Positions 16,924-33,514 are shown, numbered from the stretch's first letter. The stretch is DNA of 53,761 bases from a virus (IMGVR_UViG_3300050015_000366:1-53761); one strand, 5' to 3'. The notes: generated by a model from the letters alone, not told the origin. Made by a program: numbers and translations.

Positions 16924-18645
16924 ATGACGTTCCACCTCAGCGACCACTCGGCGCCCGTCGACCTCTCGGCTTTGATCGACACGCGACTGCTCGTTCAGGC
17001 CAACAGCGGCGGCGGCAAGAGCTGGTGCTTGCGGCGCATCCTCGAGCAGACGCACGGGCGGGCGCAGCACCTGGTGATCGACCCAGAGGGCGAGTTTGCC
17101 AGCCTCCGGGAGCGGTTCGACTACGTGCTCGCCGCGCGCCAGGGCGGGGACACGGCCGCAGACCCGCGCTCCGCAAAGCTCCTGGCTGAACGCCTGCTCG
17201 AGCTCGGGGCCTCGGCCGTCCTCGACATCTACGAGCTGAAGGCGCACGAGCGCATCCGGTTCGTGCGCGCCTTCCTCGAGGCGCTGGTCGATGCCCCGAA
17301 GAAGCTCTGGCATCCGGCGCTGGTCGTGGTCGACGAGGCGCACGTCTACTGCCCGCAGGTAGGCGAGGCCGAGAGCGCCGGCGCCGTCATTGACCTGGCG
17401 ACGCGCGGCCGCAAGCGCGGGTTCTGCGCCATCCTCGCTACGCAGCGCCTCTCGAAGCTCCACAAGGACGCCGCGGCGGAGTGCAACAACAAGCTGATCG
17501 GGCGCACTGGCCTCGACGTCGACATGAAGCGCGCCGGCGACGAGCTCGGGTTTACCAAGGACCGGCTCCACGAGCTGCGCGAGCTGGACGCGGGGCACTT
17601 CTTCGCGTTCGGGCCGGCCATCTCCAGGAGCGTAACGAAGGTCCACGTCGGCGGCGTGCAGACGACGCACCCGAAGACGGGCAGCCGGATCGCGTTCACC
17701 GCGCCGCCACCCACAGAGAAGGTCCGCGCGCTGCTTCCGAAGCTGGCCGACCTTCCGGCGGAAGCCGAGGCCCGCCAGAAGACGGTCGAGGACCTCAAGC
17801 GTGAGCTGGCCACGGCGCGCCGCGAGCTGACGATCGCCAGGCAAGCCGCCCCGGCTCCGGCGCCGCCGAAGGTCGAGCGGATCGAGGTTCCGGTTCTGGT
17901 GGACGAAGATCGGGCAGGGCTCCGGGAAGTCGTCCAGTCGCTTCGATCGACCGCGGAAACACTGGGCGCTCGTGCGGACCAAATCGAGGGGGCGCTCCGC
18001 CGAGTAGGCCAGGCGCCGATGGAGCCGCGCGGACTGCGCCCGATGCCGAACGCGACGCGGCAAATCCAGCAGCACGTGGACGGCATGATTGCTCGCGCCG
18101 CGCGGAAGCCTGTGACGCCGTCGCTGCCGCGGCGAGCCGCCGAGTCGAACGGCAATCTCACCGGCCCCGAGCAGCGCATCCTCGACGCGATTGCGTGGCT
18201 CGCGGCGATCGGCGTCTCGGAACCCGAGCAGGCCGCCGTCGCCTTCCTCGCCGGCTACACCTACGGCGGCGGCGCCTTCAACAACCCGCGCGGCTCGCTC
18301 CGCACGAGGGGCCTAGTCGACTACCGGCCAGGGGAGCGCATCGTCCTGACGGTTGATGGTGCCGCCTCGGCCAACGCGCCCGACGCGCCGCTGACCGCCG
18401 AGGAGCTGCAGGCCCGCGTGCTGGCGCGCCTGCCGGGCCCGGAGCAGCGCCTCCTGCGGCCGCTCCTGGCCGCCTACCCTGACGCGCTCAGCAACGAGGA
18501 CCTGGCCGGCCAGGCGAACTACACGCCGAACGCAGGGGCGTTCAACAACCCGAGGGGGCGCCTGCGAAGCCTCGGCCTCATCGACTACCCGCGGCCCGGC
18601 TACGTCGTCGCGAAGCCGCTGCTGTTCCTGGAGGAACGCTCGTGA
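16924..18645 (+). CDS. HerA/FtsK-superfamily ATPase with tandem C-terminal winged-helix repeats
   Basis: ANSGGGKS, VIDPEGE, VVDEAH, GRKRG, LATQR; GAFNNPRG-x-LR-x2-GL-x-DY occurs twice. Confidence 0.85.
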   Translation: MTFHLSDHSAPVDLSALIDTRLLVQANSGGGKSWCLRRILEQTHGRAQHLVIDPEGEFASLRERFDYVLAARQGGDTAADPRSAKLLAERLLELGASAVLDIYELKAHERIRFVRAFLEALVDAPKKLWHPALVVVDEAHVYCPQVGEAESAGAVIDLATRGRKRGFCAILATQRLSKLHKDAAAECNNKLIGRTGLDVDMKRAGDELGFTKDRLHELRELDAGHFFAFGPAISRSVTKVHVGGVQTTHPKTGSRIAFTAPPPTEKVRALLPKLADLPAEAEARQKTVEDLKRELATARRELTIARQAAPAPAPPKVERIEVPVLVDEDRAGLREVVQSLRSTAETLGARADQIEGALRRVGQAPMEPRGLRPMPNATRQIQQHVDGMIARAARKPVTPSLPRRAAESNGNLTGPEQRILDAIAWLAAIGVSEPEQAAVAFLAGYTYGGGAFNNPRGSLRTRGLVDYRPGERIVLTVDGAASANAPDAPLTAEELQARVLARLPGPEQRLLRPLLAAYPDALSNEDLAGQANYTPNAGAFNNPRGRLRSLGLIDYPRPGYVVAKPLLFLEERS

Positions 18646-20849
18646 GCGCCTACGCCCTCCGGCCCTATCAGCGTTCCGCCGCCGACGCCGGCGTGGCCTA
18701 CTTGACCAACCCGCGGCTGCGCGACCGGAACGGCATCATCGTCGCGCCGACGGGGTCAGGGAAATCGCTACTGGTCGCCAGCATCGCGACGGCGCTGCCG
18801 GGGCCGTGCATCGTCCTGCAGCCGACCAAGGAGATCCTCGAGCAGAACGCCGCGAAGCTCACAGCCTACGGCTTTCCGCCGGCCCTGTACTCGGCCAGCG
18901 TAGGCCGCAAGGAGATCGGGCGCATCACGCTCGCGACGTTCGGCAGCGTGGTCAAGCAGGCGGAGGCGTTCCGGGACTTCTCGTTCGTGCTCATCGATGA
19001 GTGCTTTGTCGCCGGAACGCTTGTTGATGGTCGCCCAATCGAGAGCGTTCTTCCCGGAGACGTCGTCACGACATACGACCACGAACGGGGGCAGGTCTCG
19101 TCCGGTCGCGTGCTTTCGACGATGAAGCGGCTGAGGCCGGAACGGCTCTGCCGCGTTACGGCTAGTGGCCAGCAAGTCTCGTGTACGCCAAATCATCCGT
19201 TTTTCGTCGAGGGCCACGGCTACACGCGAGCCGACAGCCTTCAGATCGGAGATCGCCTTGCCTACTGGAGTCTACCAACGACCACCGCTCCCGATAGTGC
19301 CGTGCACCCACTGCGGAGCGGACCTGAAGATCAAGAACGGGGCCCAGCATTCCTATTATCGGAAGACCGGGAGGGCTTTTCACCCGGAATGCGGGCGAAG
19401 ACAGGTCTCGGAGAACACGTCCCGGATTATGTCTGGGAGGACGCCGACCCTCAAGGCCAGGGCCGCGTCCAGCGAGCGGATGAAGCGCCGGAATCCGATG
19501 TCCAACCCGCTGATTCGCGCGAAGGTCTCCGGGTCACTGCGCAAGATCGGACACCGTCCGCGCGTTCGGGGCGGGAACGGGTGTCCGATGCCAGAGGCAC
19601 AGCGGTTGCTGCTGGCCCGACTCGGAGAGGGATGGGCCCTGGAATTCGTGGTGAAAACAGGACGTCGAGCCGAGGGGTATCCGCATTGCTACAAGATCGA
19701 CCTGGCGAACCCGGCCCTGATGATCGCGGTCGAGATCGACGGGGGGAGCCACAGTCTATCGAGGCGAGCGGAGGACGAACGGAAAACGGCGTTCTTGACC
19801 TCGCTCGGGTGGAGAGTGTGGAGGTTCTCGAACGAGAGCGTCCTAACCTCTTTGGAGCTGGTTGCGCGGGAGATTACGTTTACAACCTCGAAGTAGCCGA
19901 GCACAACAACTACTTCGCCAACGGTCTCCTCGTCCACAACTGCCACCAGGCCGTCTCGCCGAAGGGCGGCATGGTCAAGGCCTTCCTCGACGTGCTGCAG
20001 CACGCGAGAATTCTCGGATTCACAGCCACGCCGTTCCGGCTCGCGAGCAACTCCTGGGGCTCGACGCTGCGCTTCCTGACCCGGACCCGGCCTCGCATCT
20101 TCCGCGACGTCGTGCACGTCACGCAGATCGCCGAGCTGGTGCGCGGCGGCTTCCTATGCCCCGTCCAGTACGACGTGCGGCCGCTCATCAAACGGGACCG
20201 CCTTCGCTACAACAGCACAGGCGGCGACTACACCGACGCGTCGGTCCAGGCGGCCTTCGCGGAAGTCGGCTTCCCGGGCCAGCTGCGCCGAGGGGTCCAG
20301 CGCGTGCTCGACAGCGGCCGGCAGCACGCCCTGGTGTTCACCCGGTTCGTCGACGAGGCGCAGCAACTCGCGGCGGCGATCCCCGGCGCGGCGGTCGTCA
20401 CTGGCGAGACGCCAGCCGGCGAGCGGGCCCGGATTCTGAACGACTTCAAGGCTGGGCGGATCCGAGTCGTGGCGAACTGCGCTGTCCTACTCGTGGGCTT
20501 CGACTTCCCCGAGCTGGACGCCGTCGTGCTGGCCTCGCCGACCGTCTCCCTGGCCCGCTACTACCAGAGCGTCGGCCGCGGTATTCGCCCGGCGCCGGGC
20601 AAGCGTGATGCCCTGGTCGTGGACCTAGTGGGGACCGTCGAGCAGTTCGGCCACGTCGAGGATCTCGTGCTCGAGCCGGGCGGTGTGACAGGTGAGAAGT
20701 GGGTGGTCAAGAGCAGGGGGCGAGAGTTGACGAATTGCTACTACGGCGACCAGGCGAGCCAGGAGAAGCGGAAGAAGTCGGCGGAGTTCTGGAGCGGGCG
20801 GCGGGGTGGACAGGCGAGGTCACAGGCGGCGGACAACGGACGATTTTAG
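18642..20849 (+). CDS. SF2 (DExH) helicase containing an intein
   Basis: LRPYQ, APTGSGKS, DE|CH split by the intein, GFTATP, GFDFP, YYQSVGRGIR. Confidence 0.92.
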   Translation: MSAYALRPYQRSAADAGVAYLTNPRLRDRNGIIVAPTGSGKSLLVASIATALPGPCIVLQPTKEILEQNAAKLTAYGFPPALYSASVGRKEIGRITLATFGSVVKQAEAFRDFSFVLIDECFVAGTLVDGRPIESVLPGDVVTTYDHERGQVSSGRVLSTMKRLRPERLCRVTASGQQVSCTPNHPFFVEGHGYTRADSLQIGDRLAYWSLPTTTAPDSAVHPLRSGPEDQERGPAFLLSEDREGFSPGMRAKTGLGEHVPDYVWEDADPQGQGRVQRADEAPESDVQPADSREGLRVTAQDRTPSARSGRERVSDARGTAVAAGPTRRGMGPGIRGENRTSSRGVSALLQDRPGEPGPDDRGRDRRGEPQSIEASGGRTENGVLDLARVESVEVLERERPNLFGAGCAGDYVYNLEVAEHNNYFANGLLVHNCHQAVSPKGGMVKAFLDVLQHARILGFTATPFRLASNSWGSTLRFLTRTRPRIFRDVVHVTQIAELVRGGFLCPVQYDVRPLIKRDRLRYNSTGGDYTDASVQAAFAEVGFPGQLRRGVQRVLDSGRQHALVFTRFVDEAQQLAAAIPGAAVVTGETPAGERARILNDFKAGRIRVVANCAVLLVGFDFPELDAVVLASPTVSLARYYQSVGRGIRPAPGKRDALVVDLVGTVEQFGHVEDLVLEPGGVTGEKWVVKSRGRELTNCYYGDQASQEKRKKSAEFWSGRRGGQARSQAADNGRF
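19002..19940 (+). mobile_element. intein (313 aa) inserted in the helicase DE/CH motif
   Basis: Starts CFVAGT, block B CTPNHPF, ends VYNLEV...NYFANGLLVHN followed by Cys+1; removal restores DECH. Confidence 0.95.
19258..19896 (+). CDS. Vsr/DUF559-like endonuclease overprinted in the +1 frame inside the helicase intein
   Basis: CTHC, NUMOD3-like RMKRRNPM...RAKVS, EAQRLL...YKIDLA...IAVEIDGGSH...DERKTAFLTSLGWRVWRFSN; GGAG SD before TTG 19258 (ORF open from 19165). Confidence 0.85.
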   Translation: MPTGVYQRPPLPIVPCTHCGADLKIKNGAQHSYYRKTGRAFHPECGRRQVSENTSRIMSGRTPTLKARAASSERMKRRNPMSNPLIRAKVSGSLRKIGHRPRVRGGNGCPMPEAQRLLLARLGEGWALEFVVKTGRRAEGYPHCYKIDLANPALMIAVEIDGGSHSLSRRAEDERKTAFLTSLGWRVWRFSNESVLTSLELVAREITFTTSK

Positions 20850-20862
20850 GGGCGGGGAATTC

Positions 20863-21858
20863 ATGCCGGACGATCGGATGTTACATCGGCGAGCGGGTCA
20901 CTCGGAGAGGGTGTCGGGGCTGTCAGACTTCGACTACAGGGTCTGGACCACCTACTTACTCGCCGCCGACGACTTCGGAATTATGCGGGCGACGGCAGTG
21001 ACCCTCCAGGCAGCGGACGAGTCACTCGCGAAAAGGCCTCCCGGCACCGTGCAGGCGGCCCTGGAACGGGTGCTCCTGGTTGGCCTGGTCGGCGTGTTCA
21101 CGCACCAGCGCCAGCGGTTCGTCTACCAAGCCGACTGGCAGGATTGGCAGAAGGTCAAGTATCCGCGGGAAACGCAGAACCCCGCGCCGCCATTGGACTT
21201 ACTCGCGAGGTGCAGCCCCGAGACTCGGGAGTTGTTCCAGAAGCACCCGGGCGGGAACAAGCCGAGGAGCGGGAAAAATTCTCCGAAGATTTCCGAAACG
21301 TTGGGGGAAAATTCTGGAAAAGTTCCGGAAACTTTTCCGCCCAACGCGCGCGCGCGTACGCCGTTAGCCGTTAGCCGTAAGCCATTAGCCGTTAGCCATA
21401 CGCCGTCAGCCGGCGGCCAGGAGGCTGCGCCTCCGACGACGGGCGCGCCACCGGACGACCCTCCCAACGATGACATCCCGACGGACGAGGAACTGCCCGA
21501 TCCCGAGCCTCAAGCCTTGAGCCCCGAGCCTCCTCCTCGGTCCGTTCCGCGAATCGCGTCCGGCCAGCACAAGCATCACGCGCACTGCGACCTGGTCTGC
21601 GTGCCCGCGTTCCTGCACGCGGAATTCCGACAGGCCCTCAACCGGCCGAACGACCCGGACGGCGTCGATGCCGAACTCGTCGCCGGCTACACCGCGCACT
21701 GCCAGGGTTGGCCAGAGGGCGAGGCCACCGGCGACGCCGTCTCATTCTGGCGGGCGTGGTTCCGAGCGCGCTACCCGGCACCGACAACCCGGCAGATCCG
21801 GCAGGTGACCGAGCGCCAGCGCAACGCGGAGTGGCTCGCTAAGGAGGGCATCCGGTGA
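20863..21858 (+). CDS. phage replication initiator / replisome organiser
   Basis: N-terminal LLAADDFG...DWQDWQK domain, low-complexity middle with internal DNA repeats, followed by a loader-like gene. Confidence 0.7.
   Translation: MPDDRMLHRRAGHSERVSGLSDFDYRVWTTYLLAADDFGIMRATAVTLQAADESLAKRPPGTVQAALERVLLVGLVGVFTHQRQRFVYQADWQDWQKVKYPRETQNPAPPLDLLARCSPETRELFQKHPGGNKPRSGKNSPKISETLGENSGKVPETFPPNARARTPLAVSRKPLAVSHTPSAGGQEAAPPTTGAPPDDPPNDDIPTDEELPDPEPQALSPEPPPRSVPRIASGQHKHHAHCDLVCVPAFLHAEFRQALNRPNDPDGVDAELVAGYTAHCQGWPEGEATGDAVSFWRAWFRARYPAPTTRQIRQVTERQRNAEWLAKEGIR
21271..21398. repeat. probable replication origin: A/T-tract repeats plus 7-bp tandem GCCGTTA x5.5
   Basis: GGAAAAATTCT/GGAAAATTCT/GGAAAAGTTCC/GGAAACTTTTCC, then (GCCGTTA)-like units at 21360-21398, inside the initiator gene. 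Confidence 0.6.
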
Positions 21859-22684: not shown

Positions 22685-22724
22685 TCGCCCTGGCCACGGC
22701 CCGCCGGGCGCTGGAGGAAGACAA

Positions 22725-23844: not shown

Positions 23845-24334
23845 CTCGATGACCCCGGCCCCGGAGACGGCGGCGCTGGTGGAGAGACTTACCGCGCTGG
23901 CGGAAACGCTTGTGTTCACTGGCTCATCGGCATCTGCCCGAGACGTATTCGCCGCCGCCGCGCTCCTCTCGCGCCCGCCGCAGCCGGAGCCGCAGGGGAC
24001 GGCGAGGGCGCTTGTCGAGTCCATCAAGCTACAGGCCCACTACGCCGAACTGCTGAACATGCACGACGGAGGACAGCGGCTGATCTTCAAGACGGTCGAG
24101 GAATGGTTGGCACGATTGGATGGCCTTATCGCTCGTTCGGCGATGGCCCAGCACGGAGAGGGGGCGAAGTACGAGCGGCCGGAAATACGCGCACGGTGGG
24201 AATCCGACGCGCTTTCCATCGTCTCCGCCATACGACGCGACTATCTGCCCTCGATGGACGACAACGACGGCGGACAGATTCTCGTGTGGATTCTCGACCT
24301 CATTGAGCGGTCGTCCTGCGGGGAGAAAGCATGA
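23834..24334 (+). CDS. hypothetical protein
   Basis: GGAGG SD; contains QAHYAELLNMHDGG-x-R. Confidence 0.55.
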   Translation: MASNSMTPAPETAALVERLTALAETLVFTGSSASARDVFAAAALLSRPPQPEPQGTARALVESIKLQAHYAELLNMHDGGQRLIFKTVEEWLARLDGLIARSAMAQHGEGAKYERPEIRARWESDALSIVSAIRRDYLPSMDDNDGGQILVWILDLIERSSCGEKA

Positions 24335-24726
24335 AGCTCACAGAATGCGTCGGCAAGCGGCTGCTCATCAAAACGCGGTCGTGGACTAACGAGGTTGTCG
24401 AAGCATCGATCCTCGAGGCCTCGGCGTCAGGTTGCGTGCTGGTTCGCTCCCGCAACGGTGCCGAGGGGTGGTTCGATGCGGCCAGCGCGGGGAACTGCAT
24501 CGTCATCGACGAACTGCCAGTGCCGCCCGCCGAGACCCAGCACGGAGAGGGGGAGAAGCCGGTTGACGTGCCGCCATACGACGTTCGCACACACGTTGAA
24601 TGGGCGCTTCGGATGGTGACGCAATCGGCAACCCCGGAGGCGGTCGATTGGAAGACGTTCCTACGCCAACTGCTCAAGATGTTGCCGCCCTCCGAGGCCT
24701 GCCGCGAGGGAGAAGGGAAGCCATGA
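24331..24726 (+). CDS. hypothetical protein
   Basis: ATGA-coupled, GGAG SD. Confidence 0.5.
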   Translation: MKLTECVGKRLLIKTRSWTNEVVEASILEASASGCVLVRSRNGAEGWFDAASAGNCIVIDELPVPPAETQHGEGEKPVDVPPYDVRTHVEWALRMVTQSATPEAVDWKTFLRQLLKMLPPSEACREGEGKP

Positions 24727-25277
24727 CTGAGCAGGACAGGGAGACGGCGAAGCGGATCCTTGCCGATGCGTGGCGTCACGGGGCGTTGATGACCGGCCCT
24801 ACTGTCGCAGACGCCATCGCCTCCGCGCTGTCTGCGGCACGGGCTGAATCCGAAGCTGAGCGCGATGCCATTCAAGAGACGCTGACGGCTGTCGAGCATG
24901 AAGTAGCCATCGTCTACTGCCACATCACAGACGGCGCGATCTCGAAGTGCAACACGCTCGCGTCTGAGGTCAAGACGGCGGCTGACGACTGCACGATGAA
25001 GCTGGTAGACCGTGAGATCGCGGAATACGAACGCCGTGCCGAAGCCGCCGAGCGCGAGGTCGCCGCCCTGAAGGCGCAGGGGGCGTGCGAGTGGACGGAA
25101 GACAGCGACGGGAACTGGGATACCGCGTGCGGGGAGACGTTCGTTCTCATCGACGGCATCCCGACCGGGAACGACATGAAGTTCTGCTGCTACTGCGGAA
25201 AGGCGTTGACCGAAGTGCGCTACGCCGAGCCGCCGATTGACGACGAGGCGCCCGTCGCGCCCACGCCGGAGGGATGA
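24723..25277 (+). CDS. hypothetical protein with C-terminal Zn ribbon
   Basis: CEWTED...WDTACG...KFCCYCGK. Confidence 0.6.
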   Translation: MTEQDRETAKRILADAWRHGALMTGPTVADAIASALSAARAESEAERDAIQETLTAVEHEVAIVYCHITDGAISKCNTLASEVKTAADDCTMKLVDREIAEYERRAEAAEREVAALKAQGACEWTEDSDGNWDTACGETFVLIDGIPTGNDMKFCCYCGKALTEVRYAEPPIDDEAPVAPTPEG

Positions 25278-25686: not shown

Positions 25687-25783
25687 GGGCGATCGCGGCC
25701 GGGCTCAGGGGATCGTGAGGGCCCGGCGGCTTCACGCGGGCGCAGTCGCGCGGGCACCGAGAGAATCTTAGCCGGGTGGACTC

Positions 25784-26452: not shown

Positions 26453-28050
26453 GGACTGCCACGATCGGCGACCCGCTGTTGCGCATCAAGCAGGCCATCA
26501 TCGACGGCCTGGCGCCCGACGTGAACGAACAGCGGCCCGTGATCGGGGCACCCGTCATCACGACTGAGTCGGAGCTCGCCGCCTACCTGCGCGACACGTT
26601 CGGCGTGCGGCTGCCGTCGACGCGCGTCTGTCCGACGCACTGCTCGCCGTGGGAGGCGTTCTGCGAGGCCTACTTCGCCCGCTCGCCGGTGTCGGTGTGG
26701 AAGGCCTCGCGGGGCCTCGGCGGAAAGTCGTTCACGCTCTCGCTGCTCGGCCTGGTCGAGGCCGTGACGCTCGGCGTGGACGTCAACGTCGTCGGTGGAT
26801 CCGGTGAACAGGCGCAGCGCGTGCTCGAAGCGATGGGGCGGCTCTGGGACGCGCCGAGCGCGCCCCGGGCGATGCTGGCCTCCGAGCCGGCGCAGCGCCA
26901 TACGAAGCTCGTCGCCGGCAACGTCATCCGCGCGCTGATGGCGTCGACCAAGTCGGTGCGTGGTCCGCATCCTGTGCGCCTGCGCCTGGACGAGGTCGAC
27001 GAGATGGACCTGGCGATCCTCGACGCGGCGATGGGACAGCCGATGAGTGCGCGCGGCGTGCTCTCCCAGACCGTCATGTCGTCGACCCACCAGTATCCGG
27101 ACGGGACGATGACGCAGATCTTGCAGCGGGCGAAGGAGCGGAACTGGCCGATTCGCGAGTGGTGCTGGCGGGAGTCGATGGCGCCGCACGGCTGGCTCGA
27201 CCCCGCCGAGATCGAGCGCAAGCGGCAGCAAGTGACCGACGCGATGTGGAAGACGGAATACGACCTGCAGGAACCGTCCGCCGAAGGGCGCGCCATCATG
27301 ACCGAGAAGGTCGCCGCGATGTTCGCGCGCGAGCTCGGTCACTTCCCGACGGGGCACCAGGGCGCGATCGAGGCCGAGCCGCCCGACCCGAAGGCGACGT
27401 ATGCAACCGGTGCCGACTGGGCGAAGGAACAGGACTGGACGGTCATCGTCACGTTCCGGACCGACGTCACGCCCTGGCGACTCGTCGCGTTCGAGCGCCT
27501 GCAGCGCCGGCCGTGGCCCGACATGGTGAGCCGGCTCGACGCGCGGATCGCGCGCTACGCGGGATCACGTCACCTCGCAGCGCACGATGCGACGGGCGGC
27601 GGCAACGTCGTGTCCGACCTCATCGAACACCAGGTCGAGGGCGTCATCATGGTCGGGCGCGAGCGGTCGACGCTCTTCTCGAACTACATCAAGGGCATTG
27701 AGCACGACGAGCTGCGGGCGCCGTTCATCGAAACGATGGAGGCCGAGCACCGCTACGCGACGGTCGATGACCTCTTCGGTGCCGGGCATCCGCCGGACAG
27801 CCTGGTCGCCGGCGCGCTCGCGTATCGGGCCGCGGTCGGACGCGGGCGCGGCTTCCTCGACTGGATGAAGGGCAAATCGGACGGCGCCGCCTCGCCAGCG
27901 CTGCCGCCCCCGGCGGCCCCCGGCGACGACGCGGACGCGCTGGTCATGCGGCACCAGCAGTGCAGGATTCGCGGGATGACGCGGACCGTGGTCGAGGGCG
28001 GACGCGTGCGGTGTGCCACCTGTGGATGTGATCTTGGGAGGGCAGGATGA
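26449..28050 (+). CDS. terL: terminase large subunit
   Basis: RGLGGKS Walker A, LRLDEVDE Walker B, nuclease motifs GADWAKEQDWTV, HDATG, PDSLVA. Confidence 0.88.
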   Translation: MRTATIGDPLLRIKQAIIDGLAPDVNEQRPVIGAPVITTESELAAYLRDTFGVRLPSTRVCPTHCSPWEAFCEAYFARSPVSVWKASRGLGGKSFTLSLLGLVEAVTLGVDVNVVGGSGEQAQRVLEAMGRLWDAPSAPRAMLASEPAQRHTKLVAGNVIRALMASTKSVRGPHPVRLRLDEVDEMDLAILDAAMGQPMSARGVLSQTVMSSTHQYPDGTMTQILQRAKERNWPIREWCWRESMAPHGWLDPAEIERKRQQVTDAMWKTEYDLQEPSAEGRAIMTEKVAAMFARELGHFPTGHQGAIEAEPPDPKATYATGADWAKEQDWTVIVTFRTDVTPWRLVAFERLQRRPWPDMVSRLDARIARYAGSRHLAAHDATGGGNVVSDLIEHQVEGVIMVGRERSTLFSNYIKGIEHDELRAPFIETMEAEHRYATVDDLFGAGHPPDSLVAGALAYRAAVGRGRGFLDWMKGKSDGAASPALPPPAAPGDDADALVMRHQQCRIRGMTRTVVEGGRVRCATCGCDLGRAG

Positions 28051-28952
28051 AGTTCGACGTCGACAAGATCTCCGATCAGAAGCGCCTCGCGAGGGGCGAG
28101 CAGTGGCTATTGGCCAGGGCATGCCTTCGCGCCAGGGACGGAGTCCATCATCGTCAGTGGCGCGTGATGACCCTTTCGGGCGAGGCGCCAGGCGGAGAGT
28201 TCACAGCGATTAGAGAGCTGATGCCAAAGGCCCAGATCACTGCGGTCGATTTGAGCACGGCCGCGCTTGAGAAGGCTATCGAGGCAGGGGCGGACGAAGT
28301 CATTTGTTGCGATCTTTCGCAAACGACAGACAGCCCAAGGTCGGATGGTCAAACGAGAAACGGCCCAGCGTCGGCCCTGGCCGGGCTGAGATACGACGTT
28401 GTGAACCTTGATTTCTGCGGAACGCCGACAGACCAGATGCGAGAAGTCATCTCGGTCTATCGTCACATCGTTGAGCACTTCGGCGTCTACATGGTGACGT
28501 TCGCCTACGGCAGGGACGTCATTGAGCGCTGGGCCGGGATCGTGCCTACGGAGCGGCGGCGTCTCGTCCGCGCTGCAGCCATGGCGCAGAAGACGGGCTT
28601 GCCCACAAGAACGACGCGCACCATACGGGTCTTGGATCGCCTCGTCTCGGCCCTTGATGACACGCTCGCCGCGCGCGTCGTCTGGCTCTCAAGGGGGATC
28701 CTCGCAGACCTTCGGTCGGTCATCGTCTACCGCGGCCACGCGATGCCGATGTGTGCGCTTCTCTTCTGTTCGCTGCGCCATCCGGGAGAGCCGTCGGTTG
28801 TTACGCTGGACGAAGGAGATTTCGAGTTGGCAGTCGAACACCTCAGCGCCTCTCGGCTATACGACTGCCCGGAGGATCGTATCGCGTTCTTTCGTCGGCA
28901 CGCCATTGCGATGAGCGCGGTTCGCACGCGACAAGCGAGACAGGCATCATGA
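28047..28952 (+). CDS. hypothetical protein, possible class I SAM-dependent methyltransferase fold
   Basis: MTLSG...ITAVD...YDVVNLDFCG; codon usage less GC3-biased than its neighbours. Confidence 0.5.
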   Translation: MKFDVDKISDQKRLARGEQWLLARACLRARDGVHHRQWRVMTLSGEAPGGEFTAIRELMPKAQITAVDLSTAALEKAIEAGADEVICCDLSQTTDSPRSDGQTRNGPASALAGLRYDVVNLDFCGTPTDQMREVISVYRHIVEHFGVYMVTFAYGRDVIERWAGIVPTERRRLVRAAAMAQKTGLPTRTTRTIRVLDRLVSALDDTLAARVVWLSRGILADLRSVIVYRGHAMPMCALLFCSLRHPGEPSVVTLDEGDFELAVEHLSASRLYDCPEDRIAFFRRHAIAMSAVRTRQARQAS

Positions 28953-29158
28953 GCGACCTCTCGAACGCGACTCTCAACCCCGCCGAAGCCGTGCGGCGTC
29001 TTACCAAAGTCATCGAGCGCCTGAAGCGAGAACCTCCAGTCATCAGGCGACTGCAGCTCCTGGCGCGATCGCCATCGACAACCGAGTACGAGCGCCTAGC
29101 CATCGCGACAACCATACTAGCGATCCGGCGACAATCGCTACGGAAGACCACATCATGA
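28949..29158 (+). CDS. hypothetical protein
   Basis: ATGA-coupled on both sides. Confidence 0.5.
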   Translation: MSDLSNATLNPAEAVRRLTKVIERLKREPPVIRRLQLLARSPSTTEYERLAIATTILAIRRQSLRKTTS

Positions 29159-29478: not shown

Positions 29479-29756
29479 AGGGCGAGGCGCTGAGGAACGG
29501 CGCGGATAGCGCTAAGGTCGCGGCCGACCAGCAGGATGTCAAGCCAGCGCTCGCGAGCGCCCCCCCCTTCTGTGTTCGGCCTGCTCGCGCCGGACGCGGC
29601 AAAGGCGTACTCGGCCACCATCGCGATGCTTGACTCGGTGGACCCGCGATCGGGGACCGTCACACGCAAGCGGCGCTGGTGATCTCGGCCGGCGCGCGCG
29701 CGATCGTGTGACCACGGCGGGGACGTCACTCGGACGGAGGATGTCAGTGAGGACTC

Positions 29757-29975
29757 ATGGCGACGATTCGACGATTGCTCGAACAGGCCCAGCGCGACGA
29801 GTACGTCTCGGCGACGGCGCTCGCGGCGTTCTACGGCGTCTCGGCTCGCACCGTCCACAGGCTTGCCGAGCGGGGGCGCTGCCCGCATCGCCACGTGGGG
29901 CACCAGATCCGCTACCGCCGCGAGCAACTGCTGCGCCTGATGGCCGAGCACTACCCGGCCGATCCAGAGAGCTGA
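29757..29975 (+). CDS. excisionase/MerR-like helix-turn-helix protein
   Basis: YVSATALAAFYGVSARTVHRLAERGRCP...VGHQIRY; GAGGA SD. Confidence 0.8.
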   Translation: MATIRRLLEQAQRDEYVSATALAAFYGVSARTVHRLAERGRCPHRHVGHQIRYRREQLLRLMAEHYPADPES

Positions 29976-29981
29976 ATCGGT

Positions 29982-30029
29982 CAATAGCGACACTAGCGCC
30001 AATAGCGACACTAGCGCCAATAGCGACAC
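29982..30029 (+). repeat. 18-bp tandem repeat CAATAGCGACACTAGCGC x2.7
   Basis: Exact copies at 29982 and 30000, partial copy at 30018; intergenic. Confidence 0.9.
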
Positions 30030-30071
30030 AACCCATTGCGCCGCGCCTCCCCAGCCTCTACGGTGGAGGCC

Positions 30072-31991
30072 GTGCCGCTCGATCTGCGCGTCGGTCCCGT
30101 CCACCTGCACGTCGGCCGCGAGGCCCGGCAGGCGGAGCGATCGCCCGCACTCGCGGTCAATGCGGAGGTAGACCATGACCAGGTAGCCACGAAAGCCTCG
30201 CTCCCCTCAATGGCCGTGCCCAACGTCGAAGGCACGGCTCAGATTCGCGCCGCCGCCGCACAACCGAAGACGCCCTCGGGCTTTCCGATCCCGCCAGCCA
30301 CCGGCCAGCCTCCCGACCCAGGACAGACCCCGAACGCGAGCGACGCCAGCCGCCTCCTAGGCCCGATTCGCTACCAGTTCCCCTACGGCACCAACGCCAC
30401 CTTCACGCCGCGCGGCACACTGCGCCCGTTCGACCAGTTGCGCCGGATCGCCGACGCCTGCGCCGAGGTGCGGTTCTGCATCGAGACGCGCAAGGACCAG
30501 ATCTGCTCGCTCTCCTGGGACATCACGCCGAAGGACAGCAAGGCGACCGGGCAGAGCCTCGACGGCGAGATCAAGGCGGCGCGCGCGTTCTTCTCGGCGC
30601 CGGATCCTGGTCAGCCGCTCTCGACGTGGTTCCGCCAGGCGATCGAAGAGATCCTGGTCACCGACGCCCTGGCCATCTACCGCCGCCGCTCGCGCGGCGG
30701 AGACCTGCTCGGCCTCGAGCTCGTCGACGGCGCGACCTTCAAGTGCCAACTCGCCCAGGACGGACGGACGCCGAAGCCGCCGCTCGTGGCCTACCGCCAG
30801 ATCATCTACGGGCAGCCCGTCGCCGGCGGCGACTGCACGATCGACGACCTGATCTACCGCCCGCGCACCGTGCGGACGTGGACGCCCTACGGCATGAGCC
30901 CGACCGAGGCGGTCATGCTCGCCGTGACGGCCACGCTCAATCGCCAGGCCTTCGACGTCCTGCAATACACCGAGGGCACGCTGCCCGAGTCGTGGGCGAC
31001 GGTGCCGGAGTCCTGGCAGCCGAAGGACATCGACGAGTTCCAGACGTTCTTCGATTCCATGATGTCGGGGAACCTCACCCAGCGCAGCCGCGTGAAGTTC
31101 ATGCCGGCGGGCTCGAAGATCGAGTCGATGCGCCTGCGCGACTTTCAGGCCGGCTGGTACGAATGGTGGTTGAAGCTGATCGCGGCCGCCTTCGCCGTGC
31201 CGCCGTCCGAGCTGGGGTTCACGAACGACGTGAACCGAGCCACGTCGAAGAGCCAGGAGGACGTGGCCTTCCGCCGCGGCGTACGCCCGCTCGGGTCGTT
31301 CCTCAAAGAAATCTTCGACGACGTGCTCGCACGAGACCTGCGGCTTCCGCACCTCGAGTTCGTGTGGAAGAACACCGAGACCGAGGACCGCGCGAAGCAG
31401 GCGGCCGTCGACGAGATCCGCGTGCGCACCGGGATCGACAGCATCGACGAGATCCGCGTGCGCGACGGCCTGCCGATGATCGGCATGGGGAACGCCATCT
31501 TCACGCCGACCGGGCCGCTGTTCGTCGAGGATCTGATCGCGGACGTCGACGACGACCCGACGACCACGGAGACGAAGCCGGCTCCGGCCGCGCCCGCAAC
31601 GGCCACGCCGAAACCGTCCGCGCCGGCGCCGGAGCCAACGCCGCACACGGAAGGCGAAGCGCTGGACGGCCTCGAGGGCCAGGCCAAGGCGCTGGCGGCC
31701 GACCTCCGGCATTGGCGCACCGTGGCGCTCAAGGCGGCCAAGGCCGGCGCGCCCTGCAAGCCGTTCGTGAGCGCCGCGATCCCGCACGACGTCCACCACG
31801 AGATCGAGACAGCCCTGAAGGCCGCGACGACGCCGGCAGCCGTGCGCGCGCTGTTCGCCGAGATCGAGAAGCGCAAGCCGACGCTGCTCGAGCAGACGCG
31901 GATGCGTCGCAGGGTGCGCACAATGGCGGCCGACATTTTCCGGGCGCAAGGCGCCGCCCTGGTCGCGCACCTCGAGGAGCCCGCGTCATGA
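30072..31991 (+). CDS. portal protein
   Basis: LELVDGAT, YRQ, YGMSPTE, IAAAFAVPPSELG, IDEIRVRDGLP; GGAGG SD before GTG 30072 (alternative ATG 30210). Confidence 0.88.
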   Translation: MPLDLRVGPVHLHVGREARQAERSPALAVNAEVDHDQVATKASLPSMAVPNVEGTAQIRAAAAQPKTPSGFPIPPATGQPPDPGQTPNASDASRLLGPIRYQFPYGTNATFTPRGTLRPFDQLRRIADACAEVRFCIETRKDQICSLSWDITPKDSKATGQSLDGEIKAARAFFSAPDPGQPLSTWFRQAIEEILVTDALAIYRRRSRGGDLLGLELVDGATFKCQLAQDGRTPKPPLVAYRQIIYGQPVAGGDCTIDDLIYRPRTVRTWTPYGMSPTEAVMLAVTATLNRQAFDVLQYTEGTLPESWATVPESWQPKDIDEFQTFFDSMMSGNLTQRSRVKFMPAGSKIESMRLRDFQAGWYEWWLKLIAAAFAVPPSELGFTNDVNRATSKSQEDVAFRRGVRPLGSFLKEIFDDVLARDLRLPHLEFVWKNTETEDRAKQAAVDEIRVRTGIDSIDEIRVRDGLPMIGMGNAIFTPTGPLFVEDLIADVDDDPTTTETKPAPAAPATATPKPSAPAPEPTPHTEGEALDGLEGQAKALAADLRHWRTVALKAAKAGAPCKPFVSAAIPHDVHHEIETALKAATTPAAVRALFAEIEKRKPTLLEQTRMRRRVRTMAADIFRAQGAALVAHLEEPAS

Positions 31992-33514
31992 CGCCCGAGC
32001 AGCTCCGCCACCTGCTCGTGACGTTCCCGTGGGACAAGTGGGACGCGGAGTGGAAGCAAAAGTACGAGCCGCTCCACCGCGAGCTGCTCACCCTGGGCGG
32101 CGCCGCGGGCGCGACCGAGGCCGGGGGCGCGTTCGCGATCGACGACCCGATCGTGTCGGCGCTCAGCGAGCGCTACGTCGGCGAGCTCATCACGGAGCTC
32201 CAAGGCACGACGCGCGACGCGGTCTCCGCGCTCATCGAACGGACGATTGAAGACGGCCAGGCGGCGGCCTCTGGCGCGACGCCGTTCGAGCTGGGCACGG
32301 CGATCCGGGACGCGGTGCGCGAAGAGTTCTCCGGCTACGAGCGCTGGCGCGCGGACCGGATCGCCCGCACGGAATGCCTCCTACCTGAGACGCAGGTTGA
32401 CGCTGCTGTGGTGCGGGCAGCTCACAGACGGCCGTATGAAGGTCAGGTGGTCGAGGTCGAGACTGCCTCTGGCCGCCAGTTCACCGCAACCCCGAATCAC
32501 CCGATGCTCACGAGCTCTGGATGGCTTCCGTCTGGTCTCCTGGCAGAAGGCCACGATCTCGTCTGCGACAGTTTCCAAGAGCACCATGGTGCGACGGGCG
32601 ATCAGGATGTACAGCGACACCCATCCACGATCGCGCAGGTATTTGATGCGGTCGAGGCAGTAGGGGTCACGGAACGGCGTCGTTGTGCCGATCCAGACTT
32701 CCACGGCGACGGGCGGAAGGGCTATGTCGATGTTGCGTGTCCCAACGGGACGCTGACGCTCGGCAGATTCTCCGCGATCGACCAGCCACTGATGGAGTCG
32801 TTCTTCGCCCCATCCGATCAGGCGCGTGCGCGTTTCTGCGGCCGATGTAAACGCCTTCTCCCGATTGAGCAGACGTTGTGCCTCTGCGGCGTTTCTCGTG
32901 GCGACACCGGCCTCGCGCAGCCTGCGCTCGATAGCAGTGTTCGAGACGCCAAACCGCGCACAGAGGTCGACGACGGACTCGCCGTTCATGTAGCGCCTGA
33001 CGATTTGGTCAGAGGGCAGTCCCCGCAGGGTCCGCGGATGCTCGCCGCGAGCGAACCTGGCCAGGGCAGCATCGGACAGGCTGCGTTGAACGCCGGCTCG
33101 ACGAACGACATCAACCACCCAGTCAGCCTTGACGCCAAGCTCTCTGGCTATAGCCGTCGAGCCGAGCCCGGACAAATACAACTTGATCGCGTTCTCTCGG
33201 TGCGCATCAGGCAGTGGTCTGGACATGTGTTCAACCTCACGACCAGTGACGGTTACTTCGCCATTGCGGGTGGATTATACAGCGGGAACACGGCGATAGT
33301 CTACAACCAAGGCGCAGCGCTCGCCTACCACCAGAACGGGATCACGCACGTGGTGATCAGCGACGGACAGGGCGAGAACGGATGCGAGGAGTGCGAAGCC
33401 GTCGACGGCGAGATCTGGACCATCGAAGAGTTCCTGGCCGAACCGACTGCCCACCCGAACTGCACCAGGTCGGCGAGCCCGGCCGAGGCTGACGAGGCCG
33501 AAGAGGCCGCATAG
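31988..33514 (+). CDS. MuF/SPP1 gp7-like minor head protein containing an intein
   Basis: RADRIARTE|T split by the intein; C-terminal CEEC...HPNC-x-R; directly after the portal. Confidence 0.88.
   Translation: MTPEQLRHLLVTFPWDKWDAEWKQKYEPLHRELLTLGGAAGATEAGGAFAIDDPIVSALSERYVGELITELQGTTRDAVSALIERTIEDGQAAASGATPFELGTAIRDAVREEFSGYERWRADRIARTECLLPETQVDAAVVRAAHRRPYEGQVVEVETASGRQFTATPNHPMLTSSGWLPSGLLAEGHDLVCDSFQEHHGATGDQDVQRHPSTIAQVFDAVEAVGVTERRRCADPDFHGDGRKGYVDVACPNGTLTLGRFSAIDQPLMESFFAPSDQARARFCGRCKRLLPIEQTLCLCGVSRGDTGLAQPALDSSVRDAKPRTEVDDGLAVHVAPDDLVRGQSPQGPRMLAASEPGQGSIGQAALNAGSTNDINHPVSLDAKLSGYSRRAEPGQIQLDRVLSVRIRQWSGHVFNLTTSDGYFAIAGGLYSGNTAIVYNQGAALAYHQNGITHVVISDGQGENGCEECEAVDGEIWTIEEFLAEPTAHPNCTRSASPAEADEAEEAA
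32375..33289 (+). mobile_element. intein (305 aa) inserted in the MuF IARTE/T motif
   Basis: Starts CLLPET, block B TATPNHPMLT-x-x-GW, ends HVFNLTT...YSGN followed by Thr+1; removal restores IARTETA. Confidence 0.9.
32381..33226 (-). CDS. tandem-HTH plus Vsr/DUF559-like endonuclease encoded antisense inside the MuF intein
   Basis: Two HTH repeats (LYLSGLGSTAIARELGV; RYMNGESVVDLCARFGVS), then GEERL...Q-x-PVG-x-RNIDIA...VAVEV...RIKYLRDRGW; GAGGT SD before ATG. Confidence 0.82.
   Translation of the reverse strand: MSRPLPDAHRENAIKLYLSGLGSTAIARELGVKADWVVDVVRRAGVQRSLSDAALARFARGEHPRTLRGLPSDQIVRRYMNGESVVDLCARFGVSNTAIERRLREAGVATRNAAEAQRLLNREKAFTSAAETRTRLIGWGEERLHQWLVDRGESAERQRPVGTRNIDIALPPVAVEVWIGTTTPFRDPYCLDRIKYLRDRGWVSLYILIARRTMVLLETVADEIVAFCQETRRKPSRAREHRVIRGCGELAARGSLDLDHLTFIRPSVSCPHHSSVNLRLR

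What the first reader, a model, noticed from the sequence alone, without database searches (positions are those of the whole stretch)
18642..33514. Candidate class of mobile element: contiguous inteins with out-of-frame Vsr-like endonucleases, present twice in different geometries
Both inteins in this genome use the same design, in different host genes, with dissimilar nucleases and different frames (+1 sense versus antisense). That argues against an assembly accident. Established: phage 'fractured genes' place a free-standing Vsr-like endonuclease between two split-intein halves. Here the halves are still joined by an open read-through frame. Inference: this could be an intermediate on the way to split inteins or a stable overlapping-gene architecture. 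Standard annotation would miss it by calling these mini-inteins with long linkers. I cannot confirm from the sequence alone that it is undescribed.
Basis: inference. Interest (0 to 1): 0.88.

Follow-up and report, generated by a model that had tools for sequence, protein, structure and literature searches.

The report
Inteins carrying off-frame homing endonuclease genes
Two self-splicing protein inserts (inteins) in this phage each hide a complete DNA-cutting "homing" gene, one read one base out of step and one on the opposite strand; the layout is real, kept by selection and common in phages, but the design is already in print.

Summary
The SF2 helicase gene (18642-20849) carries a contiguous class-1 intein (19002-19940). 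Its +1 frame encodes a DUF559/EDxHD nuclease (19165-19896, probable TTG start at 19258). The MuF-like head gene (31988-33514) carries a contiguous intein (32375-33289). Its codon-aligned antisense strand encodes an HTH + Vsr-fold nuclease (33226-32381).

In this 68% GC window the open read-through frames are not significant on their own (347/5000 and 942/5000 recodings stay open). The relatives settle it. 75 of 80 IMG/VR loci of nuclease 1 (GC 0.28-0.67) and 45 of 46 loci of nuclease 2 keep the same geometry. In every locus examined exactly two of the six frames are stop-free.

Start codon, SD and a -10 box of the antisense nuclease lie in the antisense of intein blocks F and G. Contigs from two other metagenome runs carry a near-identical MuF gene that lacks exactly the 915-nt intein.

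This favours a stable, co-adapted composite mobile element, not a stage towards split inteins.

It is not a new class. Gosselin, Arsenault and Gogarten (bioRxiv 2025) describe antisense VSR-like and out-of-frame endonucleases in actinophage inteins. This scan had noted the design in at least 22 genomes. My searches found no published report of the +1 Vsr-like helicase form.

The parts
18642..20849 (+). SF2 (DEAD/DEAH, ResIII-type) phage DNA helicase gene, host of intein 1
   Evidence: Pfam ResIII E 3.5e-13, Helicase_C E 1.9e-12, DEAD E 7.7e-7; PHROG 16 'DNA helicase' E 5e-68
19002..19940 (+). Intein 1, contiguous class-1 intein of 313 aa inserted in helicase motif II (DE|C ... VHN|CH). Splicing parts lie at about 19002-19271 and 19791-19940. 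The 173-aa stretch between them (19272-19790) is the other reading of the nuclease gene.
   Evidence: Pfam Intein_splicing 39.8 bits (cut-off 35.8). Junction residues. The N and C parts find homologues in 64 and 60 of 80 related loci. The linker reading gives only 12 weak rows at E<=10.
19165..19896 (+). Nuclease 1 ORF, in the +1 frame relative to the helicase: CxxC zinc-knuckle region plus DUF559/EDxHD (Vsr-like) catalytic domain. Longest ORF shown; the stop lies at 19894-19896.
   Evidence: Pfam DUF559 E 1e-10. PDB 3hrl E 3.8e-4. E190, D192, H196 and D204 are invariant in 16 homologues. tblastn finds 40 phage records, the listed ones inside helicase genes.
19248..19260 (+). Probable translation start of nuclease 1: GGAG (19248-19251), 6 nt, TTG (19258-19260). 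The GGAG is formed by the Gly-Asp codons of the intein's 'IGD' motif.
   Evidence: Read from the sequence. An SD-like motif stands 4-11 nt before a start codon upstream of the first CxxC in 33 of 69 unique related loci, against 14.1 expected. Inferred, not shown.
31988..33514 (+). MuF-like head morphogenesis / minor capsid gene, host of intein 2. Its ATG overlaps the portal gene's stop (ATGA).
   Evidence: PHROG 15127 'head protein' E 6.5e-27; PHROG 2468 'head morphogenesis'; Pfam Phage_Mu_F 18.6 bits, below its cut-off of 29.6. It lies directly after the portal gene 30036-31991 (Phage_portal E 1.9e-16).
32375..33289 (+). Intein 2, contiguous intein of 305 aa (RIARTE|C ... YSGN|T): block B TPNHP, block F HVFNL, C-terminal Gly-Asn, +1 Thr
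   Evidence: Pfam Intein_splicing is only 20.5 bits, below its cut-off. AF2 model: residues 1-66 and 267-305 at pLDDT 86-95, residues 172-265 below 35. Foldseek's best rows are almost all inteins or HINT domains, best E 1.7e-3. Contigs in two runs lack exactly these 915 nt.
32381..33226 (-). Nuclease 2 gene, codon-aligned antisense to intein residues 3-284: three HTH modules plus a Vsr-fold nuclease core. The last 40 or so residues mirror the intein's N-terminal splicing domain.
   Evidence: Pfam HTH_28, HTH_23 and HTH_7 above cut-off. AF2 pLDDT 76. VIA-align gives Vsr Z 8.8, I-Bth0305I Z 7.1, 3hrl Z 6.6. 106 phage records by tblastn; the six fetched lie antisense inside MuF/head genes. 46 IMG/VR loci.
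33235..33238 (-). GAGG, SD-like, 8 nt before the nuclease 2 ATG (33226-33224). The ATG is the antisense of the His codon CAT of block F; GAGG is the antisense of the Asn-Leu codons.
   Evidence: The start codon stands at this homologous place in 37 of 41 unique sequences (34 ATG, 3 GTG). Function is inferred.
33274..33303 (-). Promoter-like site for nuclease 2: TAGACT, 18 nt, TATAAT (10 of 12). The -10 box is the antisense of the block G codons Gly-Leu(TTA)-Tyr. The -35 box lies in the first C-extein codons.
   Evidence: 1 site found, shuffles give a mean of 0.2; a -10 hexamer matching 5/6 or better lies at -80..-20 in 19 of 37 loci against 0.7 expected, mostly at -50 to -53. This is a consensus match only. 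No RNA data.

Best explanation
Both features are composite selfish elements: a contiguous class-1 intein whose interior doubles as the gene of a separately translated Vsr-type homing endonuclease.

The host mRNA is translated straight through. The intein's N and C splicing parts fold into a HINT domain. They cut themselves out together with the meaningless, probably disordered linker, which is simply the other reading of the nuclease gene. This restores the helicase and the MuF protein.

Nuclease 1 is probably made from the same mRNA by internal initiation in the +1 frame (GGAG, 6 nt, TTG 19258).

Nuclease 2 is probably made from an antisense transcript. That transcript would start at a promoter embedded in the antisense of intein block G and the first extein codons. 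Translation would begin at an ATG that is the antisense of the block F His codon.

Each nuclease is inferred to cut the intein-less allele of its host gene in a co-infecting phage, so that repair copies intein plus nuclease (homing).

Selection has to keep two frames open at once. The arrangement is old, stable and co-adapted, and is not a passing stage.

Shown here: anatomy, homology, conservation of the geometry, which frame is under selection, and a presence/absence polymorphism. Inferred: splicing, expression routes, cleavage and homing.
For: 1. Domains and junctions.

2. The same geometry in distant phages. In Vibrio phage CP-T1 (46.5% GC) the helicase frame is open through the intein, the nuclease lies in +1, and the third frame is full of stops. 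MR14 and K391 are the same. Antisense nuclease 2 homologues lie inside uninterrupted MuF/head genes of Gordonia, Haemophilus/Aggregatibacter, Salmonella, Pseudomonas and Vibrio phages.

3. Recoding null. The host frame stays open in 0/5000 recodings (CP-T1), 0/5000 (K391), 1/5000 (MR14), 0/5000 (Aaphi23) and 53/5000 (LSPA1).

4. IMG/VR surveys. 75 of 80 nuclease 1 loci have a spanning ORF with the nuclease in +1; 3 are cut by contig ends and 2 have none. Locus GC runs from 0.28 to 0.67. 53 of 80 have both intein halves by phmmer in that one ORF. 45 of 46 nuclease 2 loci have both halves in one codon-aligned antisense ORF. Over the last 600 nt of the nuclease ORF, exactly two frames are stop-free in 67/67 and 35/35 unique loci. 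Each of the other four frames has at least one stop in every locus.

5. Which frame is selected. In family 1, diversity at nuclease codon position 3 is 0.63-0.68 against 0.33-0.48 at positions 1 and 2 (residues 91-210). In family 2, position 3 > 1 > 2 over residues 1-240, and this inverts over 241-281 where the gene overlaps the N splicing domain.

6. Expression signals.

7. Mobility.
- Contigs of runs X5 and X8 (one study) match the MuF exteins with 4/380 and 3/213 differences. They skip 32368-33301 and have 19 letters in their place. That is the exact absence of the 915-nt intein.
- By my comparison, 7 of those 19 letters differ from the window's flanks. The amino-acid reading differs only by Ile to Thr.
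- In run X3 the extein part differs at 10/90 places and the intein at 18/615.
- The 11 closest helicase extein relatives (58-38% identity) all lack an intein. Overall 73 of 80 lack one.
- The MuF exteins of the 46 loci are unrecognisable by phmmer (0/46 and 1/46), while intein and nuclease are found in 45-46 of 46.
- Two free-standing nuclease 1 homologues lie directly upstream of intein-less helicase genes.
Against: - There are no expression, splicing or cleavage data. No RNA run holds the stretch (reported under Tried and rejected).
- In the window itself the open frames are within chance (7% and 19%). For Gordonia phage Fosterous the recoding test was uninformative: 5000/5000 stayed open, from a background of only 231 codons.
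- Nuclease 2 lacks the second Asp and the His of the EDxHD motif (it reads VAVEVW) and has no DUF559 hit at E<=0.1. Its catalytic competence is therefore less certain.
- Intein 2 ends in Gly-Asn, not His-Asn, and scores below Pfam's cut-off.
- Promoter and SD are consensus matches. The host is unknown and may use other promoter types. SD enrichment for nuclease 1 is modest (33 against 14.1 expected, of 69).
- The presence/absence polymorphism could also come from precise loss.
- The codon-position test uses saturated, distant sequences.
Confidence: 0.8

Rival explanations
1. In this phage the inner nuclease genes are silent relics. The inteins persist as mini-inteins with long junk linkers, and the inner ORFs are open only because stops are rare at 68% GC.
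For: In the window, an open alternative frame is not rare: recodings stay open in 347/5000 and 942/5000 cases. Long spurious ORFs abound, for example a 537-aa antisense ORF over the portal gene. Nuclease 2 lacks two EDxHD residues.
Against: Both ORFs are full-length relative to their homologues, with catalytic or invariant residues in place. Start, SD and -10 box are present in the window, including a rare TTA Leu codon and a CAT His codon that serve the antisense signals. The families show purifying selection on the nuclease frame. An intein-less allele in a near-identical gene points to recent gain or loss.
Confidence: 0.1
2. Nuclease 1 is not initiated on its own. It is made by a programmed +1 ribosomal frameshift from the helicase/intein frame, giving an N-extein/N-intein-nuclease fusion.
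For: The nuclease is on the same strand, always in +1 (75/80). Its ORF overlaps the end of the N splicing domain. 36 of 69 unique loci lack a strong SD by my criterion.
Against: In many loci a stop codon in the nuclease frame lies just before the start codon; in CP-T1 it lies directly before the ATG. That leaves little or no room for a shift. Start codons lie close upstream of the first CxxC in most loci, and SD motifs are enriched 2.3-fold. Free-standing homologues begin at the same point. No slippery site was looked for.
Confidence: 0.05
3. The nucleases are kept mainly because they help the phage, for example by cutting competing co-infecting genomes (marker exclusion) or host DNA. Homing of the intein would be a by-product.
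For: Free-standing homologues sit next to intein-less helicase genes, as free-standing phage homing genes often do (recalled general knowledge). The design is long-lived and its signals are co-adapted.
Against: Nothing here separates benefit to the phage from selfish spread. Sporadic distribution among close extein relatives and intein conservation above extein conservation are the usual marks of selfish homing.
Confidence: 0.1
4. Sequencing or assembly frameshifts: the endonucleases are really in frame, as in canonical inteins.
For: The window is a metagenome assembly.
Against: This would need two compensating errors in each intein. The same offset recurs in 75/80 and 45/46 independent contigs and in isolate genomes. 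The nuclease ORFs have their own start and stop codons. Nuclease 2 is on the other strand. An independent study's contigs match without a difference where they overlap.
Confidence: 0.01

Closest known systems
Non-canonical actinobacteriophage inteins with the endonuclease in a separate frame (Gosselin, Arsenault and Gogarten, bioRxiv 10.1101/2025.01.02.630785; abstract, sections 8 and 15 and searched passages read)
   Same: Contiguous, apparently splicing inteins whose homing endonuclease lies on the antisense strand (LAGLIDADG or VSR-like) or out of frame (EndoVII-like, frame 3). Minor capsid (MuF-type) proteins are among the hosts, and all of their inteins were non-canonical. The VSR-like enzyme carries extra helices and was linked to I-Bth0305I by HHpred. 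The proposed origin is invasion of an intein by a free-standing endonuclease gene. My tblastn hits include Gordonia phages of that data set (Affeca, Angelicage, Vivi2, Fosterous).
   Different: The preprint lists non-canonical forms in DNA polymerase, minor capsid, terminase and thymidylate synthase, not in helicase. It reports VSR-like enzymes only antisense, so the +1 sense DUF559/EDxHD helicase form is not there. It covers PhagesDB only. The words promoter, ribosome binding and start codon do not occur in its main text.
Fractured genes: split inteins with a free-standing Vsr-like or GIY-YIG endonuclease gene between the halves (Dassa et al. 2009, PMC2677866; abstract and searched passages read)
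   Same: Phage DNA-metabolism genes, inteins, and Vsr-related putative homing endonucleases that also occur free-standing. The endonuclease 3' end overlaps the next coding region.
   Different: There the host gene is broken into two ORFs that are joined by trans-splicing, and the overlaps are 6-69 bp. Here the intein frame is continuous and the overlap is the whole nuclease gene (732 and 846 nt). None of the 126 loci surveyed had split halves.
I-Bth0305I, EDxHD homing endonuclease of a recA group I intron in Bacillus phage 0305phi8-36 (Taylor et al. 2011, PMC3239194; search-listing abstract only; PDB 3r3p)
   Same: Vsr-like catalytic fold. Nuclease 1 has the E, D, H, D residues. The nuclease 2 core aligns to 3r3p at Z 7.1. 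All are mobile-element enzymes of phages.
   Different: I-Bth0305I is encoded in an intron, not overlapped with an intein. Nuclease 2 lacks the second D and the H. DNA-binding parts differ: CxxC region in nuclease 1, three HTH modules in nuclease 2.
Antisense LAGLIDADG gene in the cyanobacterial dnaX intein (Gorbalenya 1998, known to me only through the 2025 preprint's citation; Phillips, DeSimone and Gogarten, bioRxiv 10.64898/2026.09.14.751524, abstract only)
   Same: A contiguous intein with its homing endonuclease in an overlapping, different reading frame. The proposed origin is a secondary invasion of a mini-intein. Intein-plus and intein-minus alleles coexist.
   Different: Cellular host gene and, by the 2025 preprint's account, a LAGLIDADG enzyme.
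Out-of-frame HNH endonuclease insert in phage DNA methylases ('ShiLan domain'; Arsenault, Gosselin and Gogarten 2025, PMC11855218; abstract only)
   Same: A homing endonuclease gene hidden in another frame of an uninterrupted phage gene.
   Different: No intein splicing domain; the read-through insert stays in the host protein.

Membership tests
Intein (class 1) | N-terminal Cys/Ser/Thr; block B Thr-x-x-His; C-terminal Asn; Cys/Ser/Thr at +1 | tested here: met
   Intein 1: C1, TPNH, VHN, +1 Cys. Intein 2: C1, TPNH, SGN, +1 Thr. The penultimate His is replaced by Gly in intein 2 and its relatives (YTGN).
Intein (class 1) | HINT fold / profile match | tested here: met
   Met for intein 1: Pfam PF14890 39.8 bits against a cut-off of 35.8. 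For intein 2 this is only suggestive: 20.5 bits, below the cut-off. Its AF2 model has confident terminal beta parts. Foldseek's best rows are almost all inteins or HINT domains, but the best E is 1.7e-3.
Intein (class 1) | In-frame insert that is precisely absent from homologous alleles | tested here: met
   Intein 2: contigs in runs X5 and X8 lack exactly the 915 nt. Intein 1: 73 of 80 helicase relatives read DE-C/A-H without an insert at that site.
Intein (class 1) | Protein splicing activity | not testable with these tools
   Inferred from intact blocks and from the need for a working helicase and head protein.
EDxHD / DUF559 Vsr-like homing endonucleases (I-Bth0305I type) | Profile match and the E, D, H, D catalytic residues: nuclease 1 | tested here: met
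   DUF559 41.9 bits against a cut-off of 20.6. 3hrl E 3.8e-4. E190, D192, H196 and D204 are invariant in 16 sequences.
EDxHD / DUF559 Vsr-like homing endonucleases (I-Bth0305I type) | Profile match and the E, D, H, D catalytic residues: nuclease 2 | tested here: not met
   No DUF559 hit at E<=0.1. D167 and E176 are conserved, but Trp (variable in relatives) stands where the second Asp would be, and there is no His. It is therefore not filed as EDxHD.
Vsr-like / PD-(D/E)xK nuclease fold | Fold similarity of the nuclease 2 core | tested here: met
   The three best nuclease rows are Vsr 1cw0_A (Z 8.8, rmsd 3.3, 107 aligned), 3r3p (Z 7.1) and 3hrl (Z 6.6). Foldseek gave only weak rows: 1vsr E 0.36, 3r3p E 0.47. 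Z near 8 is not far above the background the tool quotes.
Fractured gene (Dassa et al. 2009) | Host gene and intein split into two ORFs with the endonuclease gene between them | tested here: not met
   Both host frames are continuous, as they are in 75/80 and 45/46 relatives.
Non-canonical intein with the endonuclease in a separate frame (Gosselin et al. 2025) | Contiguous splicing frame, with a recognisable endonuclease encoded inside the intein on the antisense strand or out of frame | tested here: met
   Both inteins. The antisense VSR-like form in a minor capsid gene matches their type C. The +1 sense VSR-like form is not among their four types.
Homing endonuclease (function) | Cleaves the insert-less allele and drives copying of the element | not testable with these tools
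   Indirect only: a presence/absence polymorphism with clustered, mostly silent differences at the site, and sporadic distribution.

The most novel reading that the evidence does not exclude
These are not recent accidents of a free-standing endonuclease landing in an intein. They are two ancient, co-adapted dual-coding elements.

Their nuclease expression signals are written into the conserved intein blocks themselves. For the antisense type, the start codon is the antisense of the block F His codon, the SD is the antisense of the Asn-Leu codons, and the -10 box is the antisense of block G. For the +1 type, the SD is formed by the Gly-Asp codons of the HINT 'GD' motif. Splicing domain and nuclease therefore constrain each other and travel as one unit, even to new insertion sites.

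My searches found no published report of the +1 sense DUF559/EDxHD helicase family. It is widespread from 28% to 67% GC and invisible to annotation.
Probability: 0.45. Interest if true: 0.55.

Novelty: new variant of a known kind. Interest (0 to 1): 0.45.

Why it matters
The design shows that an intein can carry its mobility enzyme as a fully overlapping second gene, on either strand, for long evolutionary periods. That bears on how inteins acquire endonucleases ('splicing first') and on how split inteins arise.

In practice, gene callers miss these nuclease genes. Only 1 of 9 GenBank records examined annotates one. Intein catalogues will therefore file such inteins as mini-inteins with long linkers and undercount mobile inteins.

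The families offer natural cases of two reading frames under joint selection. They also offer compact Vsr-type enzymes with defined natural targets: helicase motif II, and the MuF ARTE|T site. The intein-less allele found here supplies one such target for a cleavage test.

Tried and rejected
- DNA-level searches of GenBank phages found almost nothing. Helicase gene: 4 records covering 6% at about 70% identity. MuF gene: none.
- The search for related loci with single proteins found no relatives. Alignments were needed.
- phmmer of nuclease 2 against PDB sequences gave only a chance row. Foldseek gave no row at E<=0.001. VIA-align was used instead.
- Recoding test for Gordonia phage Fosterous: uninformative (5000/5000 open, background of 231 codons).
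- My first spanning-ORF criterion for family 2 wrongly flagged 11 loci, because the high-GC stop-to-stop ORF of the nuclease runs past the host ORF's end. One search showed both intein halves in one antisense ORF in all 11.
- In one search several projected C-terminal boundaries of family 2 were wrong, because the best C-part hit fell on the block B region. Those rows were ignored.
- No RNA holder was listed for 31988-33514, so expression could not be examined. All four runs laid were contigs, so they give no strand or start information.
- I did not look for slippery sites.
- Trees with topology tests of nuclease against intein against extein were not built.
- Only the best 80 of 271 nuclease 1 relatives were returned. 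Fractured forms may exist among the rest.
- Literature. Searches for intein with 'different reading frame', with overlapping/antisense, with DUF559 and helicase, and with CP-T1 found no report of the +1 Vsr-like helicase form. Supplemental Table 1 of the 2025 preprint might list such cases.
- PMC9403480 was checked and is not relevant.

Full report
**What is there**

The window is a 53,761-base IMG/VR virus record, about 78% complete, at about 68% GC. A profile search of the whole record finds exactly two intein matches, the two in question.

Gene 1 (18642-20849, +) is an SF2 helicase (ResIII, DEAD, Helicase_C; PHROG 16). Its motif II is interrupted between DE and CH by a 313-aa insert at 19002-19940. 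The insert begins with Cys, has block B TPNHP and ends VHN before Cys. Pfam Intein_splicing is above its cut-off. Between the splicing parts the helicase frame reads 173 residues of R/G/P/D/E-rich sequence. The +1 frame over the same DNA (19165-19896) reads a protein with a CxxC region and a DUF559 domain (E 1e-10). It matches the solved DUF559 protein 3hrl. It also has the E, D, H, D residues that are invariant in 16 homologues.

Gene 2 starts at ATG 31988, overlapping the portal gene's stop. The 962-aa ORF from 30626 is a high-GC artefact. It is a MuF-like head protein (PHROG 15127 and 2468; Pfam Phage_Mu_F below its cut-off). It is interrupted after RIARTE by a 305-aa insert at 32375-33289 with Cys1, TPNHP, HVFNL and a YSGN end before Thr. 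The antisense strand holds a 281-aa ORF (33226-32381) with three HTH modules. Its modelled core is closest to Vsr (Z 8.8), I-Bth0305I (Z 7.1) and 3hrl (Z 6.6). It lacks two of the four EDxHD residues and has no DUF559 hit, so I call it Vsr-fold and not EDxHD. The two nucleases are barely alignable (E 0.12).

The intein 2 model has confident beta-rich ends (pLDDT 86-95) and a region at 172-265 with pLDDT below 35. Foldseek's best rows are nearly all inteins, though none passes E 0.001.

**Is it more than chance?**

Not within the window alone. At this GC the window has 73 ORFs of 80 aa or more in 18 kb. When each nuclease is recoded with the window's codon usage, the host frame stays open in 347/5000 and 942/5000 trials.

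The relatives decide the matter. tblastn finds nuclease 1 in 40 GenBank phage records (37 Vibrio, 2 Corynebacterium, 1 Pseudomonas). It finds nuclease 2 in 106 records. All nine records I fetched show the hit inside one uninterrupted annotated helicase or head gene. The hit is in +1 for family 1 and on the opposite strand for family 2. Recoding leaves the host frame open in 0/5000 (CP-T1), 0/5000 (K391), 1/5000 (MR14), 0/5000 (Aaphi23) and 53/5000 (LSPA1). Fosterous was uninformative.

In IMG/VR, 75 of the 80 best nuclease 1 loci have a spanning ORF with the nuclease in +1. Three are cut by contig ends and two have none. Locus GC runs from 0.28 to 0.67 with a median of 0.51. 53 of 80 show both intein halves by single-sequence phmmer in that ORF. 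For nuclease 2, 45 of 46 loci have both halves in one codon-aligned antisense ORF.

Over the last 600 nt of the nuclease ORF, exactly two of six frames are stop-free in all 67 and all 35 unique loci. For this count I left out 5 and 1 loci that were cut by contig ends or free-standing. Each of the other four frames has at least one stop in every locus.

**Which reading is selected**

In family 1, nucleotide diversity is highest at nuclease codon position 3 (0.63-0.68 against 0.33-0.48 at positions 1 and 2, residues 91-210). It drops where the gene overlaps the C splicing part. The intein-frame linker of the window finds only 12 weak rows, while the nuclease frame finds all 80 loci.

In family 2 the frames are codon-aligned. 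A sense stop would be an antisense TTA, CTA or TCA codon, and the two protein sequences mirror each other. The nuclease pattern (position 3 > 1 > 2) holds over residues 1-240 and inverts over 241-281. There the gene runs through the N splicing domain: 'VIRG' is the mirror of TPNHP. The invariant sense-frame motif PDFHGDG is the mirror of the nuclease's VAVEV.

**Expression signals (inferred)**

Nuclease 1: GGAG (19248-19251), 6 nt, TTG 19258, with GGAG formed by the intein's Gly-Asp codons. A similar SD-like motif before a start codon just upstream of the first CxxC occurs in 33 of 69 unique loci against 14.1 expected.

Nuclease 2: in 37 of 41 unique sequences the start codon (34 ATG, 3 GTG) is the antisense of the His codon of block F, H-V-F/Y-N-L. 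The antisense of the Asn-Leu codons often gives GAGG or AAGG eight bases upstream.

In the window a promoter-like site, TAGACT-18-TATAAT (10 of 12), lies at 33303-33274 on the minus strand, 48 nt before the ATG. The -10 box uses a TTA Leu codon, which I expect to be rare at this GC. A -10 hexamer matching 5/6 or better occurs at -80..-20 in 19 of 37 loci against 0.7 expected, mostly at -50 to -53. That position is the antisense of block G. The words promoter, ribosome binding and start codon do not occur in the main text of the 2025 preprint.

**Mobility**

Contigs of two runs of one study (X5 and X8; wastewater and bioreactor metagenomes) match the MuF exteins with 4/380 and 3/213 differences. 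They skip 32368-33301 and have 19 letters in their place, which is the exact absence of the 915-nt intein. By my comparison, 7 of those 19 letters differ from the window's flanks. All the differences are silent except one codon, Ile to Thr. This is what co-conversion at homing, or target-site escape, would leave. Precise loss is not excluded.

In run X3 the extein part differs at 10/90 places and the intein at 18/615. A second study's contigs (X2) match the window without a difference over the parts they cover.

Among the 80 closest helicase C-extein relatives, 73 lack an intein at the site, including the 11 closest. 1 has an HN|C junction and 6 have a GN|C junction (the 9 rows the script labelled 'other' I sorted by eye).

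The MuF exteins of the 46 loci are unrecognisable by phmmer (0/46 and 1/46), while intein and nuclease are found in 45-46 of 46.

Family 1 also sits at other junctions, such as ICW|C...HN|CEEAQ and ...HN|SSLLKN. Two free-standing homologues lie just upstream of intein-less helicase genes.

**Comparison with what is known**

The general design is in print. Gosselin, Arsenault and Gogarten (2025 preprint; abstract, sections 8 and 15 and passages read) report 63 non-canonical actinophage inteins. These include antisense VSR-like and antisense LAGLIDADG endonucleases and a frame-3 EndoVII-like one. The hosts are DNA polymerase, minor capsid, terminase and thymidylate synthase. They cite Gorbalenya 1998 and Gogarten 2002 for the antisense LAGLIDADG case, papers I did not see.

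A 2026 preprint treats the dnaX case (abstract only). Arsenault et al. 2025 describe an out-of-frame HNH without an intein (abstract only). Dassa et al. 2009 describe only the split form, with overlaps of 6-69 bp.

The MuF intein here is therefore a new member of a described type. The +1 sense DUF559/EDxHD helicase form is not among the preprint's types. I did not find it in searches of the held library. That library is incomplete and supplements were closed.

This scan had already noted the same designs in at least 22 other genomes. Those notes agree with my results. I reached the 2025 preprint before reading them. They prompted my search for the 2026 one.

**Verdict**

Interest is moderate. 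It rests on the breadth of the +1 helicase family, the expression signals built into the intein blocks, and the intein-less allele that supplies a natural target.

Noticed in passing
window 30357-31970 (-) and 30626-31987 (+): A 537-aa antisense ORF and a long +frame ORF run over the portal gene. They look like the usual spurious open frames of a 68% GC genome. The 962-aa ORF given for the MuF gene owes its first 454 residues to this.
   Followed up: partly
L050 3358-3999 and L056 3306-3938: Free-standing homologues of nuclease 1, each overlapping the start of an intein-less SF2 helicase gene by a few dozen bases. This is a possible picture of the ancestral free-standing state next to its target gene.
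   Followed up: partly
L026, L043, L045, L046, L071; L053, L060, L061: The same intein plus +1 nuclease unit sits at other junctions (ICW|C...HN|CEEAQ; ...HN|SSLLKN). The host proteins were not identified. This hints at moves to new host genes with the geometry kept.
   Followed up: no
window 32615-32884 (intein 2 residues 81-170, sense frame): AlphaFold gives pLDDT 59-86 and some helices and strands for the sense reading opposite the nuclease core, including the invariant PDFHGDG. It may only echo conservation imposed by the antisense gene, but I did not test this.
   Followed up: no
L150, L154, L155, L161, L205, L206: Helicase relatives with a different insert ending ...FVSGN before CH at the same motif II site. 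This suggests that a second intein type uses this site.
   Followed up: no
L002 1028-4258 (Gordonia phage Fosterous gene 12): The MuF-like gene is 1076 aa, far longer than the window's, and may hold further inserts. The 2025 preprint places related phages (Affeca, Angelicage) in its EndoVII-like cluster.
   Followed up: no
L007 2408-3217 (Salmonella phage PK1): This is the only one of nine GenBank records examined in which the antisense nuclease ORF is annotated, as 'hypothetical protein' overlapping the head morphogenesis gene.
   Followed up: yes
window 24001-25000, 28001-29000, 47001-49000: GC dips to 0.60-0.63 against a background of about 0.68. They are similar to the dip over the helicase intein (19001-20000, 0.622) and may mark other foreign inserts.
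   Followed up: no
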